Part shown: positions 1 through 52,065 of the stretch, piece after piece
Position numbering within the stretch: the first letter of the stretch is position 1
Layout of the letters: each line of letters starts with the position of its first letter
Assembly: GCA_964635205.1 (NCBI GenBank)
Contig: CAZWMX010000001.1
Span: forward strand, 2,213-60,595
DNA length: 58,383 nucleotides
Origin: an uncultured Acidimicrobiaceae bacterium
Lineage (GTDB): Bacteria > Actinomycetota > Acidimicrobiia > Spongiisociales > UBA5794
Direction: 5' to 3'
The notes under the pieces: model-generated
Databases searched by the model: none
Seen by the model: the letters and a program-made list of their open reading frames with translations, nothing else
Told to the model about the DNA's origin: nothing
Made by a program: the position numbers and the translations under genes

Positions 1-119
1 TGGTAACGGTCAGGTATCGGGAGCGGTAGACCGTACGTTCGGCTGACGCCTCACTGACCGACAACCGTAGACCGAAAGATCAGAATCGGTCATCGGTCAT
101 CGGTCATCGGTCATCGGTT
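1..119. repeat. Heptamer array A: (ATCGGTC)x4 perfect (85-112) plus ATCGGTT, preceded by about 80 nt of degenerate 7-nt units (for example ACCGACA ACCGTAG ACCGAAA at 57-77)
   Basis: Read directly. The array abuts and overlaps the TAA stop of the HD gene (118-120). Confidence 0.85.
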
Positions 120-573
120 AGACGTCATCCGCTTGTTCCAGGAGATGCCAAGACGCAGGGTCGACTCCGGGAGGCGGGTTTCCCGGGTGGTGGCGGGTGA
201 AAGCGACGGCCAGGTCTCCTGCACCGAGATTCTCGAGTTCTTTTGCGCCGATCTCACCGTGATCGAGATACTCGCTCCATCGGCCGGTTGTCGGCAGACC
301 GAGACGTCTCCACGTGGTCGCGAAGGACCGAGAGATCGCGCCGAGGTCTGAAACTGTCTTTCCAACATCGTGGAGGAGCGCAGCCTCGTACAGGTGCTCG
401 TGCCCGGCCAGGCGTTCCCTGACGCCGAACGCGTGTCTCTGATCCTCGGACCGCTGGAGGAAGAACGCCTGTGCAAGTGGCGGATCGAGGATGGACCGAA
501 CCGTGGATTGCTCGGCGGGTGTCAGGGGTCTGGCTGTGAGGAATCCAAAGAATCGGCGTATGAGGTGCGACAC
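118..573 (-). CDS. HD-domain metal-dependent phosphohydrolase (small, about 151 aa)
   Basis: This is the C-terminal part of tracked ORF 118..846 and carries the HD signature AALLHDVGK. A GTG at 571-573 lies 4 nt after the stop of the upstream DksA-like gene. The longer tracked N-terminus overlaps that gene and is treated as an artefact. Confidence 0.6.
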   Translation of the reverse strand: MSHLIRRFFGFLTARPLTPAEQSTVRSILDPPLAQAFFLQRSEDQRHAFGVRERLAGHEHLYEAALLHDVGKTVSDLGAISRSFATTWRRLGLPTTGRWSEYLDHGEIGAKELENLGAGDLAVAFTRHHPGNPPPGVDPASWHLLEQADDV

Positions 574-577
574 ACAA

Positions 578-928
578 CTACGTCGATCGTGTCTTGCAAT
601 GGATGCACTTGGACGATGTCGGGCGGTACTCCATGCGATCATCGCCGATCGGCTTGCCGCAGTCGGTGCAGATACCGAAGGTACCGTCATCGATACGCGC
701 GATCGCGGCTTGGATGTCGTCGAGATGGATCTTGAGGTTGTCGATGATGCCCATGGTCTCCGTGCGCTCGGCCGTGGCCGCACCTGCGTCTGCGAAGGCA
801 TCCCCGTAGTCCATGTCGCCGGTGAGTTCACCGTTTTCATCGGCACCGAGCTCAGCGAGCTGATGAAGCAGGTGTGCGCGCTCCTCGGCGAGAGCGGCGG
901 CAGTCTTCACGATGTCGATGGGGGGCAT
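578..928 (-). CDS. TraR/DksA-family C4 zinc-finger protein
   Basis: The C-terminus has CTDCGKPI...SSKCIHC (CxxC-N17-CxxC) after an acidic coiled-coil-like region. The ATG at 928 is preceded by GGAGG with a 5-nt spacer. Alternative starts are 955, 979 and 1018. Confidence 0.7.
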   Translation of the reverse strand: MPPIDIVKTAAALAEERAHLLHQLAELGADENGELTGDMDYGDAFADAGAATAERTETMGIIDNLKIHLDDIQAAIARIDDGTFGICTDCGKPIGDDRMEYRPTSSKCIHCKTRST

Positions 929-1023
929 CGATTCCTCCAGGTTGACCGCTTCCATACGACTGTCGGCGGGCGGTGTCATCAGATTAGTAGCCCGGAGGAG
1001 GAATCCAGCGCCGGGCACTTGGA

Positions 1024-49694: not shown

Positions 49695-50194
49695 GAGGCC
49701 CTGTTCGCGCCGAGCGACTCTTCGCGGAGCTCCTTGAGCGCCTGTTTGCGGACACGCGTGCTGAGATGGGCCAGAAGCAAGGTTCCGTCGAGATGGTCGA
49801 TCTCGTGTTGCAGCACCCTGCCCAGCAACTCGTCACCCTCGAACATGACGGGTAGACCATCCACACCGACACCTTCGGCCTTGGCATAGTCCGCCCGCTT
49901 GATCAGCCAGAATCGATCAGGAACCGACAGACAGCCTTCTTCGAACTTCCACTTACCCGATGTTTCAACGATCTGGGGATTGATCATCACAAAGGGACCG
50001 TCACCGACGTCGGCAACGAAGATCTTCTTGAGAACACCGATCTGTGGCGCAGCAAGACCGACTCCCGGCGCGTCGTACATGGTTTCCAGCATGTCGTTGA
50101 CAAGCCGCGTGATGTCGTCATCGAATACAGACACATCCGACGCGTCCATCGAAAGGACCGGGTCGGGAAACGTGCGTATCGGGTACATCGCCAT
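49691..50194 (-). CDS. def: Peptide deformylase
   Basis: GVGLAAPQIG, EGCLSVP and HEIDHLDG motifs. Only the last 167 codons of the 582-aa tracked ORF are used. Confidence 0.9.
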   Translation of the reverse strand: MAMYPIRTFPDPVLSMDASDVSVFDDDITRLVNDMLETMYDAPGVGLAAPQIGVLKKIFVADVGDGPFVMINPQIVETSGKWKFEEGCLSVPDRFWLIKRADYAKAEGVGVDGLPVMFEGDELLGRVLQHEIDHLDGTLLLAHLSTRVRKQALKELREESLGANRAS

Positions 50195-50248
50195 GGGGAG
50201 GAGAATACTTGCGCCGCGTGTCACGTGCCTGTTCTCCCCTGTTTCTTC

Positions 50249-50283
50249 CCTGAAACCCGAAACCTGATACCTGAAACCTGTCA
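50249..50283. repeat. Heptamer array K: CCTGAAA CCCGAAA CCTGATA CCTGAAA CCTGTCA
   Basis: Read directly. It runs into the priA stop (50284-50286). ACCTGT-catc-ACAGGT forms a 6-bp hairpin at its end. Confidence 0.85.
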
Positions 50284-52065
50284 TCACAGGTCTATCGGAT
50301 CCACATCCACCCGCACCTTTGCGCCTCGACCCCGCAGTGTTGTGAGAATCGGTCGGAGTGCCAAGCGGGCCTGTTCGAGATCCCGGCCCTGGATCAACCA
50401 CCGAAGCCGATCGCGAGCAGGAGCCGGACCGAGAACCGTTGCTGTGCCGCTCAGTCCTTCGACGAGGAGGGTCCCGGCGTCGTGGATCCCCTCGGTCTCG
50501 ATGGCGATGAGCGATCCGATGGGCGGAAACCCGAACTTCCCGCGAGACATCAGTTCGCTCTCGAGGAACGCGGCCGAGCGTCCGTTTGCCAATGTCTTCA
50601 CCACGTCCTGGTTGACCGCGGATGTCTGGACGAGGCATCGGTGGCCCGCACCCCGCCGAACCGTCTGGGCGAGCCGTACGAGCAGCCGGAGCGCGTCCTC
50701 GGCCGCCCGATAGTGGGGTGCCATGGTGAGTCCGTCCACATCGACCGCAACTGCGAGTCCAACGTCGCCGATACCGATCAGATCTCGCTCGGAACCGACC
50801 GTCACGAGCCTCCCGTCGTCCACACGTCCGACGTCGTCGCCGACCAACCGTCCGATATCGTCGACGATTCGCCCGACACCTGCCCCGAGGGGTTGGAACC
50901 GGGCTCCGTCGCAGTTGGTGCAGACTCCGAGACTTGTCCCACAGCGTCTGCACGTGTCGTCTCGCGACGCAGCGCTCTCGCACGTCGGGCATCTGCGAAT
51001 GTCGCCACATGCCACGCATCGGAACGCAGGTGCGTATCCGCGCGAACCGACCAGCACGAAGCTTCGCTCGCCGTCGGCCGTCGTTCTCCTGATGGCAGCC
51101 TTGGCCCGCTCTGTCAGCAATCCGCCGCCCGGCGGCTCCTCCGAGCGATCGACAACCTCGACAACGGGCCACTGTCTGCCCGGCTTGGACTCGACCCGCG
51201 TTCCGTGAACGATCGCTTCGAGCGTCGGAACAGGCCCATGGAACTCGACATGGAACGACTCGATGTTCGCTCGACGCAAGATCACCTCCCGAACGCTCAA
51301 AGTGGGTGTGCCGGGTGATCGCATCACCCTGCGTCCATCCTCGACCACTGCCACGAGTCCCACGTTTCCGAAGGGCCAGAACACGATCTCGCGAGTGCCA
51401 ACCAGGATGAGCCCAGCGCCTGTTGCAATCCTCGACCAAGCTCTCGTGACTTCTGCGCCGGACATGGAGGACGTGGCCTTGATGACTCGTTCGCCATATT
51501 CGTCTTTCAGAGCTTCCGCGATCCCGTTGATCTCCATGACACTCGGCGCAATCACGACGACGGTCCGATGAGTGCCGGCGAAGGGGCGGATGGTGGATGC
51601 GATCGCTTCGTCGTAAGGAGGGGACCCGATCCGATACACCGAACGGTCCCCTTCATCAGGGTCAGGCTCGTCCACAACGTTCTCATCCGTCGATGCGGCT
51701 GCCCGTTTCGGCACGTTCGGGGGAATCGTCCGTTTCAGTATCACGGAGAGCGGCGTCACGTAGTGGGTGGATGCCCAACGTAACGACTCGAGCATCAATG
51801 GATCGAACGAGGCGATATCACCAGAAAGTCCCTCGACAGGAAGGAGCTTTCGTCGTGGGTCGGCTTCGAAGAGGGCCGTGACAAAACCCTTGACCCTGCG
51901 GCCGGAGACTCTCACTCGGACCCTGCTTCCGATTCGAACCGTCAGGTCGTCGGGGATCAGGTAGGAGAATCCGTCGTCAACGGAGAAGGTCGAGATGTCC
52001 GGAACGACCTGGCAGGCGCTTCGAGTGGTCAGGACTCTGCCCTGAGGTTCATCACGGCGTTCCAT
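50284..52065 (-). CDS. priA: Primosomal protein N-prime (PriA) homologue with degenerate ATPase motifs
   Basis: N-terminal 3-prime-DNA-binding-like region (FSYLIPDDL...VRVRVSGRRVKGFV) and Cys-rich zinc region CVACGDIRRCPTCES...CRRCG...CTNCDG. No GxxxxGK[ST] is present. ATG 52065 overlaps the coaBC end by 37 nt. Confidence 0.75.
   Translation of the reverse strand: MERRDEPQGRVLTTRSACQVVPDISTFSVDDGFSYLIPDDLTVRIGSRVRVRVSGRRVKGFVTALFEADPRRKLLPVEGLSGDIASFDPLMLESLRWASTHYVTPLSVILKRTIPPNVPKRAAASTDENVVDEPDPDEGDRSVYRIGSPPYDEAIASTIRPFAGTHRTVVVIAPSVMEINGIAEALKDEYGERVIKATSSMSGAEVTRAWSRIATGAGLILVGTREIVFWPFGNVGLVAVVEDGRRVMRSPGTPTLSVREVILRRANIESFHVEFHGPVPTLEAIVHGTRVESKPGRQWPVVEVVDRSEEPPGGGLLTERAKAAIRRTTADGERSFVLVGSRGYAPAFRCVACGDIRRCPTCESAASRDDTCRRCGTSLGVCTNCDGARFQPLGAGVGRIVDDIGRLVGDDVGRVDDGRLVTVGSERDLIGIGDVGLAVAVDVDGLTMAPHYRAAEDALRLLVRLAQTVRRGAGHRCLVQTSAVNQDVVKTLANGRSAAFLESELMSRGKFGFPPIGSLIAIETEGIHDAGTLLVEGLSGTATVLGPAPARDRLRWLIQGRDLEQARLALRPILTTLRGRGAKVRVDVDPIDL

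What the first reader, a model, noticed from the sequence alone, without database searches (positions are those of the whole stretch)
1..50286. Family of degenerate 7-nt-period tandem arrays at gene 3-prime ends (at least 12 loci in 58 kb)
Twelve non-coding spots carry 4-6 consecutive heptamers, each with a fixed 4-5 nt core and 2-3 variable positions. The loci are 85-119, 4165-4199, 11055-11082, 14957-15040, 23960-24043, 27157-27200, 31129-31202, 32415-32477, 41425-41459, 42777-42811, 46262-46297 and 50249-50283. All lie within about 60 nt of a stop codon, and several contain the stop and the last few codons (recN, trmI, ribH, priA, the dehydratase). None occurs in the five divergent-promoter gaps (23569-23708, 25773-25855, 29340-29521, 31995-32085, 47906-47957). 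They sit where operon-end terminators are expected: after rplT, ribH, recN and priA, before the rib riboswitch, and in four of the five convergent gene pairs. Most lack a classical hairpin plus U-tract. Unit cores fall into a few families: CCTGNNN, TACGTAN/CGTANTA, CCGTANA, NNNTCAG/TTCNCAG and ATCGGTC. I do not recognise this as a described element class. REP/BIME-like extragenic repeats are the nearest analogy, but the strict heptad phasing with built-in degeneracy is not typical of them.
Basis: seen in the sequence. Interest (0 to 1): 0.7.

Follow-up and report, generated by a model that had tools for sequence, protein, structure and literature searches.

The report
Heptamer repeat arrays at gene ends
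An uncultured Acidimicrobiia bacterium fills most gaps downstream of its genes with fast-changing 7-base tandem repeats, some paired into long hairpins; this is a new example of the known but unexplained "heptanucleotide repeat" phenomenon, not a new class.

Summary
At 16 or more of 21 lag-7 matches the window has 11 arrays. Dinucleotide shuffles give 0.17, and every other lag from 4 to 12 gives at most 1. At 15 of 21, 13 of 14 arrays lie in the 5.7% of the window that is non-coding. All sit at a stop codon, and none sits in the five divergent gaps.

They are not one element. Family 1 (TTYACRG/CYGTRAA) is a dispersed 75-90 nt hairpin element between convergent genes (z about -4.5, with compensatory changes). 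Family 2 (TACGTAN/GTAGTAC) is palindromic and ends in the candidate -10 box of the next transcription unit. Family 3 (CCTGNNN), ATCGGTC and GCTNTCA are direct arrays in stop-to-promoter spacers.

A 99%-identical sister strain shows one-unit indels, concerted unit changes and one element replacement. Arrays differ at 18% of positions; other intergenic DNA differs at 1.1%. Syntenic Acidimicrobiia carry unrelated 7- or 8-nt arrays in the same gaps, and each genome has its own families.

This matches the heptanucleotide simple-sequence-repeat phenomenon described for cyanobacteria, Xanthomonas and Beggiatoaceae. A terminator role is plausible only for the hairpin pairs and is untested.

The parts
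60..84 (.). Degenerate left arm (AACCGTA GACCGAA ...), the inverted partner of the ATCGGTC array
   Evidence: Read from the sequence. In the fold of 60-130 on the minus strand it pairs with the last units of the array (z -1.9).
85..119 (.). ATCGGTC x5 array abutting the stop (118-120) of the minus-strand HD-like ORF 118-846
   Evidence: TRF period 7, 4.9 copies, 100% match. ORF and weak HD-domain hit.
4165..4199 (.). GCTNTCA x4-5 array straddling the recN stop (4183-4185). On the sense strand it reads TGANAGC, with a TGA in each unit.
   Evidence: TRF, lag scan, recN Pfam hit. A short 7-bp hairpin follows at about 4148-4165; the region as a whole folds no better than shuffles.
11055..11082 (.). 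CCTGNNN x4 array between the DUF4193 stop (11081) and the GT2 start (11000)
   Evidence: Lag-7 15/21, Pfam. No structure (z -0.4).
14957..15040 (.). Family 2 inverted pair: (GTAGTAS)x5, a loop, then (CGTAMTA)x3. It lies between the stop at 15048 and the helY start at 14926. Its last unit on the sense strand reads TACTTT (14962-14957), a candidate -10 box.
   Evidence: TRF. Inverted repeat I4, 86% complementary. Fold z -1.4. The -10 reading is inference from the sequence.
23955..24043 (.). Family 1 hairpin element between the convergent genes fdx (stop 23954) and trmI (stop 24031). Left arm (TTCWCAG)x4, right arm alternating CCGTARA/CTGTGAA.
   Evidence: Fold -38.5 and -42.2 kcal/mol, z -4.5 on both strands. 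nhmmer E 3e-19. One-unit (7-nt) indel in strains L212 and L215.
27157..27200 (.). CCTGNNN-type array plus the terminal palindrome CTGAGACATGTCTCAG. It fills the 36-nt gap between the MFS stop (27160) and the stop (27197) of a 42-aa membrane ORF.
   Evidence: TRF, ORF list, weak fold z -1.2. The sister strain has CCTGAGA where the window has CCTAAGA.
31118..31205 (.). Family 1 hairpin element between the PALP dehydratase (stop 31165-67) and the hypothetical gene 31200-31994 (minus strand). Right arm is (ACCGTAA)x5.
   Evidence: The minus-strand RNA folds at -40.8 kcal/mol, z -4.6; the plus strand gives z -0.8. The sister strain has (CTGTGAA)x3-4 in place of (ACCGTAA)x5. nhmmer E 2e-18.
32409..32486 (.). 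Family 1 hairpin element between PLDc_N (stop 32409) and thiI (stop 32479). The stem reaches both stop codons.
   Evidence: Fold z -4.6 (plus) and -3.2 (minus). Both arms are rebuilt in the sister strain, including a +7 nt insertion.
41425..41459 (.). CCTGNNN x5 array (sense NNNCAGG) between the rplT stop (41463) and a conserved hairpin
   Evidence: TRF 4.6 copies. Relative L209 has a single AACAGGT at this position.
41384..41415 (-). Conserved GC-rich hairpin after the rplT array. It is followed by the candidate -10 box TACGAT (41362-41357) and the candidate leaderless ATG of spoU at about 41350. This is context, not part of the array.
   Evidence: Fold z -3.5. Homologous hairpin and TACGAT box in L008, L010, L012, L014, L016, L017 and L021.
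42777..42811 (.). Family 2 array (CGTANNA x4) containing the ribH stop. Its last unit reads TACGCT (42784-42779), a candidate -10 box for the L20-leader-like RNA upstream of infC.
   Evidence: Lag-7 15 or more of 21. L20_leader match at 42665-42766, 30 bits, E 3e-4, below the gathering score. Array shared with L009.
46262..46297 (.). Family 2 array between the RR-GGDEF stop (46312) and the FMN riboswitch. Its last unit reads TACCGT (46271-46266), a candidate -10 box.
   Evidence: TRF. FMN riboswitch at 46134-46256, 116 bits. Conserved TACC(G/T)T 7 nt before the riboswitch start in relatives. The gap is replaced by a family 1 element in the sister strain.
50249..50283 (.). CCTGNNN x5 array immediately after the priA stop (TGA TGA in frame). 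It lies upstream of the candidate def -10 box TATTCT (50207-50202) and the def ATG at about 50194.
   Evidence: TRF. Alignment of relatives places the def start and the TANNCT box. The sister assembly has a run of N here.

Best explanation
The window comes from an uncultured Acidimicrobiia bacterium (Actinomycetota). Its stop-to-next-promoter spacers are colonised by species-specific families of 7-nt tandem repeats.

Shown:
- The arrays arise and turn over by unit-wise tandem duplication and deletion of the slippage type, and by concerted replacement of units.
- They change about 17 times faster than other intergenic DNA.
- The same gaps in related genomes hold unrelated 7- or 8-nt arrays.
- Within one genome the same families recur at many gaps.

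Inferred:
- New arrays are seeded from sequence already present at the gap. The seed can be the stop-codon context, a single CAGGT, a terminator palindrome or a TACNNT -10 box.
- They persist only where they do no harm. A 7- or 8-nt unit breaks the reading frame, and divergent promoter gaps are fully constrained.
- When mirrored into inverted pairs (family 1), they form a dispersed 75-90 nt interrupted hairpin spanning the stops of convergent genes. Its most likely role is a U-tract-less bidirectional terminator or a 3'-end protecting stem-loop, as proposed for REP/BIME elements.
- Single direct arrays (CCTGNNN, ATCGGTC, GCTNTCA) are probably near-neutral spacer expansions.
- Family 2 arrays double as the core-promoter region of the downstream unit.
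For: Period specificity and location.

Slippage dynamics:
- An exact 7-nt indel is the only gap in 6.2 kb between 99.4%-identical strains. It is seen in two independent assemblies.
- An array of 5 CAGG units in the window corresponds to a single AACAGGT in a relative whose rplT is 99% identical.
- The 18-nt tandem copies of the priA end in L018 point the same way.

Hotspot: arrays differ at 18.2% of positions. Non-array intergenic DNA differs at 1.08% and coding DNA at 1.06%.

Concerted change: (ACCGTAA)5 in the window against (CTGTGAA)3-4 in the sister strain.

Recurrence in relatives:
- All 28 period-7 and 11 period-8 arrays in 1.19 Mb of syntenic loci lie outside mapped genes.
- 30 of the 39 lie in two operon-end gaps.
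- Periods 5 and 10 give none.

Genome-specific families: unit distance within a genome is smaller than between genomes (permutation P=0.0015).

Hairpins:
- z of -4.5 or lower at three convergent gaps.
- 21-pair consensus with 5 compensatory pairs among 7 copies.
- The one convergent gap without an array has an ordinary hairpin with z -3.6.

Dispersal: the sister strain carries a family 1 element in the RR-GGDEF|rib gap, where the window has a family 2 array.

Same topology in the literature: PMC4692102, PMC4679880.
Against: - No transcript data, so termination or 3'-end protection is untested.
- Folding of 22 array-bearing gaps in relatives shows no sense-strand advantage over the antisense strand. 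Array gaps fold no better than array-free gaps.
- Single arrays have little structure (z -0.4 to -2).
- The rplT array sits next to a separate, conserved hairpin. The array itself is therefore not needed as a terminator there.
- A fixed 4-nt core with variable remainder is not what neutral decay of a slippage product predicts. In the CCTG family I count by eye 1 core change and 11 variable-position changes.
- Identical unit variants (TTTCAGG, TATCAGG, TGACAGG) recur at different loci, which neutral decay also does not predict.
- The slippage model does not explain why only periods 7 and 8 occur.
Confidence: 0.55

Rival explanations
1. The arrays are periodic binding sites for an oligomeric RNA- or ssDNA-binding protein. 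Each protomer reads a 4-5 nt core every 7 nt, acting at transcript 3' ends in factor-dependent termination, processing or translational insulation. HutP (UAG plus a 4-nt spacer), TRAP and cold-shock or S1 domains work in this way.
For: - Fixed core plus 2-3 free positions.
- Genome-specific motifs recur at many loci.
- The same unit variants are shared between loci.
- Left and right arms can differ in period (8 vs 7) while keeping a 6-nt core (L024).
- Degenerate CCTGNNN x5 arrays occur in many unrelated metagenome contigs.
- MacGregor proposed S1, Csp or CsrA binding for TAACTGA repeats (PMC4679880).
Against: - At least three unrelated cores coexist in one genome.
- Arrays differ at 18% between 99%-identical strains, and whole arrays are swapped. 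Conserved binding sites should not change this fast.
- CCTG arrays occur in either orientation in the metagenome contigs, where gene strands were not determined.
- No candidate protein was identified.
- The metagenome scan had no control with another 4-mer core.
Confidence: 0.13
2. The arrays are purely neutral simple-sequence repeats. A slippage bias at 7-8 nt, such as the polymerase footprint proposed by Mrazek in 2007, produces arrays that survive only in unconstrained DNA. The hairpins are by-products of quasi-palindrome template switching, and none of it has a function.
For: - Hypervariability and unit indels.
- No sense-strand folding bias.
- Unrelated units occupy the same gap in different genomes.
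- A frame-breaking period explains the exclusion from genes. MacGregor makes the same argument about stops in all three frames (PMC4679880).
Against: - The genome is 94% coding, yet arrays occupy about a fifth of the non-coding DNA. They occupy 12 of 18 non-divergent gaps.
- Every convergent gap carries a hairpin of some kind.
- Compensatory changes keep the family 1 stem paired.
- Families are shared across loci.
Confidence: 0.22
3. Family 1, and perhaps the other families, are REP/REPIN-type elements spread by a REP-associated tyrosine transposase (RAYT) or a similar enzyme. The heptad substructure would be secondary.
For: - Extragenic, imperfectly palindromic and multi-copy, with a conserved centre.
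- Insertion or replacement polymorphism between strains.
- GTAG/CTAC motifs lie at several element borders and in many relatives' units. That REPs carry a GTAG head is recalled from memory.
Against: - No RAYT (Y1 transposase) gene among the 58 window ORFs scanned against Pfam.
- The GTAG motifs coincide with TAG stop codons.
- Copies differ in unit number rather than being near-identical.
- Single direct arrays are not palindromes.
Confidence: 0.08
4. The arrays are selected as multi-frame stop barriers. A unit of 7 or 8 nt that contains TGA, TAG or TAA places stops in all three frames just after the gene. This would catch read-through or frameshifted ribosomes.
For: - Sense-strand stops occur in every unit at 85-119 (GATGACC) and at recN (TGANAGC).
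- priA ends in TGA TGA.
- Many arrays in relatives start at the stop and repeat it, for example cagtag|ATCAGTAG x5.
Against: - Not universal. The sense strand at 11055 and the arrays of L038, L051 and L010 have no stops.
- By my manual count, 11 arrays have stops on the sense strand, 4 on the antisense strand only and 7 on neither. Several of those genomes are related.
- A survivorship filter explains the pattern: a duplication overlapping a gene end is tolerated only if it carries the stop.
Confidence: 0.05

Closest known systems
Long simple sequence repeats with heptanucleotide units (Mrazek, Guo & Shah 2007, as summarised in PMC4679880 and PMC4692102)
   Same: - Tandem 7-nt units are the dominant non-triplet period.
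- They are concentrated in intergenic DNA.
- Their distribution across lineages is sporadic. Three Actinobacteria were among the ten genomes richest in 5-11 nt repeats.
- Slippage was proposed as the origin.
   Different: - This case is in Acidimicrobiia.
- The arrays are short (4-6 units) and degenerate rather than long and perfect.
- Several families coexist.
- Period 8 also occurs in relatives.
GGGAATC arrays of Xanthomonas and GGGGAYT arrays of Nostoc (Rehm et al. 2015, PMC4692102)
   Same: - Hundreds of intergenic heptamer arrays, typically about 4 units long.
- Preferentially within 50 bp of a stop or start codon.
- Under-represented between divergent ORFs.
- About 70 inverted pairs able to form stem-loops.
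- Length and sequence vary between close species.
- Function unresolved.
   Different: - Those units are G-rich and form G-quadruplexes, with one dominant unit per genome.
- The units here are not G-rich.
- At least three families coexist here.
STRR heptanucleotide repeats of heterocystous cyanobacteria (Mazel et al. 1990; cited in PMC4692102 as three tandemly repetitive heptanucleotides of Calothrix PCC7601)
   Same: Several distinct heptamer families in one genome, tandem and extragenic.
   Different: - A different phylum and different units.
- STRR arrays are described as near-perfect repeats. That description is from memory.
- No hairpin-element architecture has been reported for them, to my knowledge.
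TAACTGA repeats of marine Beggiatoaceae, cyanobacteria and Bacteroidetes (MacGregor 2015, PMC4679880)
   Same: - Intergenic heptamer direct repeats of 2-6 copies.
- They may overlap stop codons because the unit carries stops in all three frames.
- A genome-specific motif occurs at many loci.
   Different: - Those repeats lie mostly just upstream of start codons and point towards them.
- There is a single unit type, with almost no inverted pairs.
REP/BIME (REPIN) extragenic palindromes of proteobacteria
   Same: - Family 1 is a multi-copy imperfect palindrome at gene 3' ends and between convergent genes.
- It is species-specific and polymorphic in presence.
- Its likely role as a terminator or mRNA-stabilising stem-loop is the one proposed for REPs.
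   Different: - The arms are built of 7-nt tandem units whose number varies.
- No RAYT gene was seen.
- Copies are not near-identical.
U-tract-less ('I-shaped') hairpin terminators reported for Actinobacteria (from memory: Unniraman 2001, Mitra 2009; disputed by in-vitro work)
   Same: Long stems without a U tail at gene ends in an actinobacterial genome that lacks canonical terminators.
   Different: - No heptad periodicity is described for those terminators.
- Function here is untested.

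Membership tests
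Intergenic heptanucleotide SSR / LSSR (STRR-like) | Head-to-tail tandem copies of a 7-nt unit, more frequent than chance and than other periods | tested here: met
   TRF. Lag 7 gives 11 arrays, other lags at most 1, shuffles 0.17.
Intergenic heptanucleotide SSR / LSSR (STRR-like) | Strong bias to non-coding DNA | tested here: met
   13 of 14 arrays lie in the 5.7% of the window that is non-coding. In relatives, 0 of 39 lie inside mapped genes.
Intergenic heptanucleotide SSR / LSSR (STRR-like) | Unit-number instability (slippage-type indels) between close strains | tested here: met
   An exact 7-nt indel at 23971 in two independent assemblies. A +7 nt insertion at 32471. Window has 4 units and L007 has 3 in the rib gap.
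Intergenic heptanucleotide SSR / LSSR (STRR-like) | The same unit family recurs at many loci of one genome | tested here: met
   Three families cover 11 of the 12 loci. Within-genome vs between-genome unit distance gives P=0.0015.
Xanthomonas/Nostoc-type heptamer arrays (Rehm 2015) | G-rich unit able to form a G-quadruplex | tested here: not met
   No unit has a run of three or more G.
Xanthomonas/Nostoc-type heptamer arrays (Rehm 2015) | Close to stop or start codons, depleted in divergent gaps, frequent inverted pairs | tested here: met
   Compared with the description in PMC4692102.
REP/BIME (REPIN) | Extragenic imperfect palindrome present in many copies | tested here: met
   Met for family 1 only: 3 full copies plus 1 partial in 58 kb, and a fourth locus in the sister strain.
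REP/BIME (REPIN) | Conserved GTAG/CTAC head recognised by a RAYT | tested here: inconclusive
   GTAG/CTAC is present at some element borders, but it coincides with TAG stop codons and is absent at others.
REP/BIME (REPIN) | A cognate RAYT transposase gene in the genome | not testable with these tools
   None is present in the 58-kb window (Pfam). The rest of the genome was not available.
Intrinsic (hairpin plus U-tract) terminator | GC-rich stem followed by a U run | tested here: not met
   Terminator-like sites are no more frequent than in shuffles. Only 27185-27200 overlaps an array, and weakly.
Hairpin-only ('I-shaped') terminator / 3' stabiliser | Stable stem-loop directly downstream of a stop | tested here: met
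   Met for 23955-24043, 31118-31205 and 32409-32486 (z of -4.5 or lower). Not met for the single arrays.
Hairpin-only ('I-shaped') terminator / 3' stabiliser | Transcript 3' ends map to the stem | not testable with these tools
   No RNA data were available.

The most novel reading that the evidence does not exclude
The heptad arrays are register-specific landing pads for a so-far unknown multimeric nucleic-acid-binding factor acting at transcript 3' ends. By extension, the unexplained STRR, GGGAATC and TAACTGA arrays of other phyla would be the same. Each lineage's core would co-evolve with its factor. That would explain the fixed core with free spacer positions, the genome-specific families and the restriction to periods 7-8.
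Probability: 0.1. Interest if true: 0.75.

Novelty: new member of a known kind. Interest (0 to 1): 0.4.

Why it matters
Heptanucleotide repeats are the most over-represented non-triplet simple repeats in many bacterial genomes. Since about 1990 nobody has explained why the period is 7 or what the repeats do.

This lineage is an unusually dense and tractable case. Arrays occupy two thirds of its non-divergent intergenic gaps. Strains that are 99% identical already differ by whole units and whole arrays. Syntenic relatives show repeated independent births at the same operon ends. One family has become a dispersed hairpin element.

This gives a natural system in which birth, amplification, mirroring and spread of such repeats can be followed. 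A role in terminating transcription in terminator-poor Actinomycetota could also be tested in it. For annotation, these arrays mark transcription-unit boundaries, and they explain assembly gaps in metagenome-assembled genomes.

Tried and rejected
1. A homology-based six-frame gene caller (all-vs-all blastp) picked shadow ORFs and missed def and ribE. I abandoned it in favour of tblastn mapping of Pfam-checked window proteins.

2. Sense vs antisense folding of 22 array-bearing gaps showed no sense-strand bias. It gives no evidence for RNA-level selection. The strand asymmetry at 31118-31205 rests on effectively two concerted substitutions.

3. The idea of stops in all three frames gave only a trend. 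It is explainable by survivorship and was already noted by MacGregor.

4. Canonical terminator and promoter scans found nothing above shuffle level.

5. Rfam at gathering threshold matched only the FMN riboswitch. No family matches the arrays.

6. Rho rut sites were considered and set aside. The CCTG family reads NNNCAGG on the sense strand of the upstream gene at all four window loci, so its sense-strand RNA is G-rich rather than C-rich. From memory, the usual YC spacing is about 11-13 nt, not 7.

7. An assembly artefact is rejected. Identical arrays appear in six independent assemblies.

8. Three exact-protein look-ups for more strain variants found little or nothing.

9. Mrazek 2007 could not be read directly. 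It is cited second-hand.

Full report

Tandem Repeats Finder reports period-7 arrays at 85, 4169, 14960, 15018, 23958, 27166, 31127, 31167, 32415, 41425, 46269 and 50249, plus a period-14 array at 24000.

A lag-autocorrelation scan shows how specific the period is. With at least 18 of 21 matches, lag 7 gives 7 arrays, lag 14 gives 3, and every other lag from 4 to 15 gives none. With at least 16 of 21, lag 7 gives 11 arrays, other lags at most 1, and 30 dinucleotide shuffles average 0.17. At 15 of 21 there are 14 arrays. Locus 32415 is picked up by TRF only.

Near-identical copies of part of the window occur in six independent assemblies without indels. The arrays are therefore not assembly artefacts.

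**2. Gene context**

Pfam scans of 58 ORFs show an actinobacterial gene set. It includes the Pup-proteasome operon, recN-pyrG, the rib operon, infC-rpmI-rplT, pheST, and priA-def-fmt. Almost all genes are on the minus strand, and about 94% of the window is coding. The closest ribH relatives are Acidimicrobiia metagenome-assembled genomes.

Thirteen of 14 arrays lie in the 5.7% of the window that is non-coding (P about 1e-15). Every array lies at or within a few nucleotides of a stop codon. Several contain one: recN, trmI, ribH and the dehydratase. The priA stop abuts its array.

Arrays occur in 12 of 18 non-divergent gaps and in 0 of 5 divergent gaps (P=0.014). They occur in 4 of 5 convergent gaps. 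The gap at 27161 is really a 36-nt gap between the MFS stop and the stop of a 42-aa membrane ORF that overlaps the OmpA stop.

Hairpin-plus-U terminators are no commoner than in shuffles.

**3. The arrays are not one thing**

*Family 1 (TTYACRG on one arm, CYGTRAA on the other).*
- It forms the loci 23955-24043, 31118-31205 and 32409-32486. The pair 60-84/85-119 is a more distant member.
- The three full copies fold into long interrupted hairpins of -37 to -42 kcal/mol, with z about -4.5 and 0 of 200 shuffles as stable.
- They align to each other, including a conserved centre CAGTC(A/G)GCA-loop-C(C/T)GAC.
- A profile built from them finds only these copies and their strain variants. It finds nothing in the other Acidimicrobiia loci.
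- A consensus of 21 pairs includes 5 pairs with compensatory double changes.
- The one convergent gap without an array, ppk2|fmt, has an ordinary hairpin at 48757-48790 with z -3.6. Four of the five convergent junctions therefore carry a strongly stable stem-loop, and the fifth (27157-27200) has only a short palindrome.

*Family 2 (TACGTAN/GTAGTAC; 14957-15040, 42777-42811, 46262-46297).*
- It is built from a palindromic core, and GTAGTACGTACTAC is a 14-nt palindrome.
- In all three loci the last, degenerate unit reads TACNNT. The three versions are TACTTT, TACGCT and TACCGT.
- That unit lies 6-8 nt upstream of where the next transcript should start. The three transcripts are the FMN riboswitch at 46134-46256 (116 bits), an L20-leader-like RNA at 42665-42766 (30 bits, E 3e-4, below gathering), and helY.
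- Relatives keep TACC(G/T)T 7 nt before the riboswitch start.
- These arrays therefore occupy the core-promoter region of the downstream unit as well as the 3' end of the upstream gene. The -10 assignments are inference.

*Family 3 (CCTGNNN; 11055, 27157, 41425, 50249), plus ATCGGTC (85) and GCTNTCA (4165).*
- These are direct arrays with little structure (z -0.4 to -2).
- The rplT array lies between the stop and a separate GC-rich hairpin at 41384-41415 (z -3.5). That hairpin is conserved in relatives. It is followed by TACGAT and a candidate leaderless start of spoU.
- The priA array lies between the stop (TGA TGA) and the candidate -10 box TATTCT of a leaderless def.

**4. Dynamics**

A sister strain covers window positions 15048-51722. 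It is contig JBGMRH010000004.1 of GCA_048061295.1 (loci L218 and L219). It is 98-99.6% identical in genes.

Almost all indels between the two strains fall in the arrays:
- The fdx|trmI left arm has 3 units instead of 4. This exact 7-nt indel is also seen in an independent assembly, L215.
- Both arms of the PLDc_N|thiI element are rebuilt.
- The right arm at the dehydratase gap is (ACCGTAA)5 in the window and (CTGTGAA)3-4 in the sister. Every unit carries the same two transitions, so the change is concerted.
- The RR-GGDEF|riboswitch gap holds a 36-nt family 2 array in the window. In the sister it holds a family 1 hairpin element plus extra sequence.
- The priA|def gap is a run of N in the sister assembly.

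Per aligned nucleotide, arrays differ at 18.2%. Non-array intergenic DNA differs at 1.08% and coding DNA at 1.06%.

A relative whose rplT is 99% identical at the nucleotide level has a single AACAGGT where the window has five CAGG units. This shows an array being born by local amplification.

**5. Relatives**

Synteny from priA to tyrS is conserved in about 60 Acidimicrobiia loci totalling 1.19 Mb.

- All 28 period-7 and 11 period-8 arrays in those loci lie outside mapped genes.
- Thirty of the 39 lie in two operon-end gaps, RR-GGDEF|riboswitch and ribH|infC.
- None lies in the divergent ppk2|rpe gap.
- Periods 5 and 10 give none, and period 11 gives one. Periods 6 and 9 occur inside genes.
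- Units differ between genomes at the same gap. Many arrays start at the stop codon itself, for example cagtag|ATCAGTAG x5 followed by an inverted CTACTTG x4 in L024. Many are inverted pairs.
- Within a genome the same family recurs at different gaps. Examples are GGTATC in L038, CGTATTG in L051, GAGACYY in L022 and an AGTC core in L046. Unit distance within genomes is smaller than between genomes (permutation P=0.0015).
- At moderate divergence some arrays persist. The window and L007 share the GTAGTAC family in the rib gap, with 4 and 3 units. The window and L009 share the TACGTA array at the ribH stop.

**6. Wider occurrence**

My rough estimate of the chance expectation for 20 specified bases is about one match; this was not computed. 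The contigs range in GC from 0.34 to 0.73.

About a third of the arrays are perfect repeats, and about a fifth have four or more different NNN. Several are inverted pairs, (NNNCAGG)n...(CCTGNNN)n, that fold into long hairpins.

No control core was scanned, so this result shows generality, not that CCTG is special.

**7. Comparison with what is known**

- According to MacGregor 2015 (PMC4679880) and Rehm 2015 (PMC4692102), Mrazek et al. 2007 found heptanucleotide units to be the most abundant class of long simple-sequence repeat in most prokaryotic genomes. They suggested polymerase slippage as the cause.
- Rehm et al. describe GGGAATC arrays in Xanthomonas and GGGGAYT arrays in Nostoc. These are typically about four units long and lie within 50 bp of stops or starts. 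They are under-represented between divergent ORFs, with about 70 inverted pairs. They vary between close species, and their function is unresolved.
- MacGregor describes TAACTGA repeats that overlap stop codons because the unit carries stops in all three frames.
- A literature search that included Acidimicrobiia among its terms turned up no paper describing such repeats in that class.

The finding is therefore a new member of a described but unexplained kind. Its local peculiarities are several coexisting families, strong degeneracy with a fixed core, period 8 in relatives, and one family acting as a REP-like dispersed hairpin.

**8. Mechanism**

Shown:
- Origin and turnover are by unit-wise duplication and deletion and by concerted replacement.
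- Arrays are excluded from genes and from divergent gaps.
- Families are genome-specific.
- Hairpins sit at convergent junctions, with pairing maintained.

Inferred:
- The hairpin elements act as U-tract-less bidirectional terminators or 3'-end protectors.
- The direct arrays are near-neutral spacer expansions.
- Family 2 overlaps promoters.

Against a purely neutral view: a 94%-coding genome tolerates arrays in two thirds of its eligible gaps. Cores also stay fixed while 2-3 positions vary. In the CCTG family I count by eye about 1 core change and 11 variable-position changes.

Against a conserved binding-site view: divergence is 18% between strains, and whole arrays are swapped.

No test showed a sense-strand RNA folding bias.

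Noticed in passing
window 27197-27325 (-): A 42-aa ORF (MSYVASQIMVWIIIATLFGFALGWMISSRRGSKRKQKFKKRF) with one predicted membrane helix and a basic tail. Its GTG start overlaps the OmpA-family gene's stop (GTGA), which suggests translational coupling. The gene callers behind the fetched contigs did not call it.
   Followed up: partly
window 42665-42766 (-): A sub-threshold match to the L20 leader (RF00558, 30 bits, E 3e-4) upstream of infC. The sequence AAGAGGAGGCGCCTGCTTCCCACC and the following hairpin plus T-run (42700-42677) are conserved in most Acidimicrobiia relatives. This is probably a divergent L20-type attenuator.
   Followed up: partly
window 41348-41362 (-), 50192-50207 (-): spoU (TrmH-like) and def appear to be leaderless. 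A conserved TACGAT or TATTCT box lies 6-7 nt before the ATG, and the arrangement is conserved in relatives. The organism's -10 consensus looks like TAC(G/C)NT.
   Followed up: partly
window 31786-31887 (inside ORF 31200-31994, -): A 33-nt (also 18-nt) tandem repeat, 3.1 copies at 84% match, inside a 264-aa ORF with no Pfam hit. It is a coding repeat unrelated to the heptads.
   Followed up: no
window 48757-48790: A compact hairpin (z -3.6) spanning the stops of the convergent genes ppk2 and fmt, which are only 18 nt apart. It is an ordinary, non-heptad stem-loop at the one convergent junction that lacks an array.
   Followed up: yes
window 20191-20370 (-): The Pup gene ends in ...QKGGE. The C-terminal residue is Glu, not Gln, so Pup would not need deamidation by Dop before ligation.
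   Followed up: no
L018 about 2900-2960 (after priA): An 18-nt tandem triplication of the priA 3' end including its stop (GACCTGTGATCACGGC x3). This is another duplication at a gene end that carries the stop with it.
   Followed up: no
window 32057 (divergent gap 31995-32085): The sister strain carries an 8-nt insertion here. Apart from three paired 1-nt gaps inside genes (probably alignment artefacts), it is the only indel between the strains that lies outside an array.
   Followed up: no
L070 2162-2198 and 7754-7784 (Thermoanaerobaculia MAG): A GTGAAGG-family heptamer array at two loci of an Acidobacteriota contig. Genome-specific heptamer families are therefore not limited to Acidimicrobiia among the fetched loci.
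   Followed up: no
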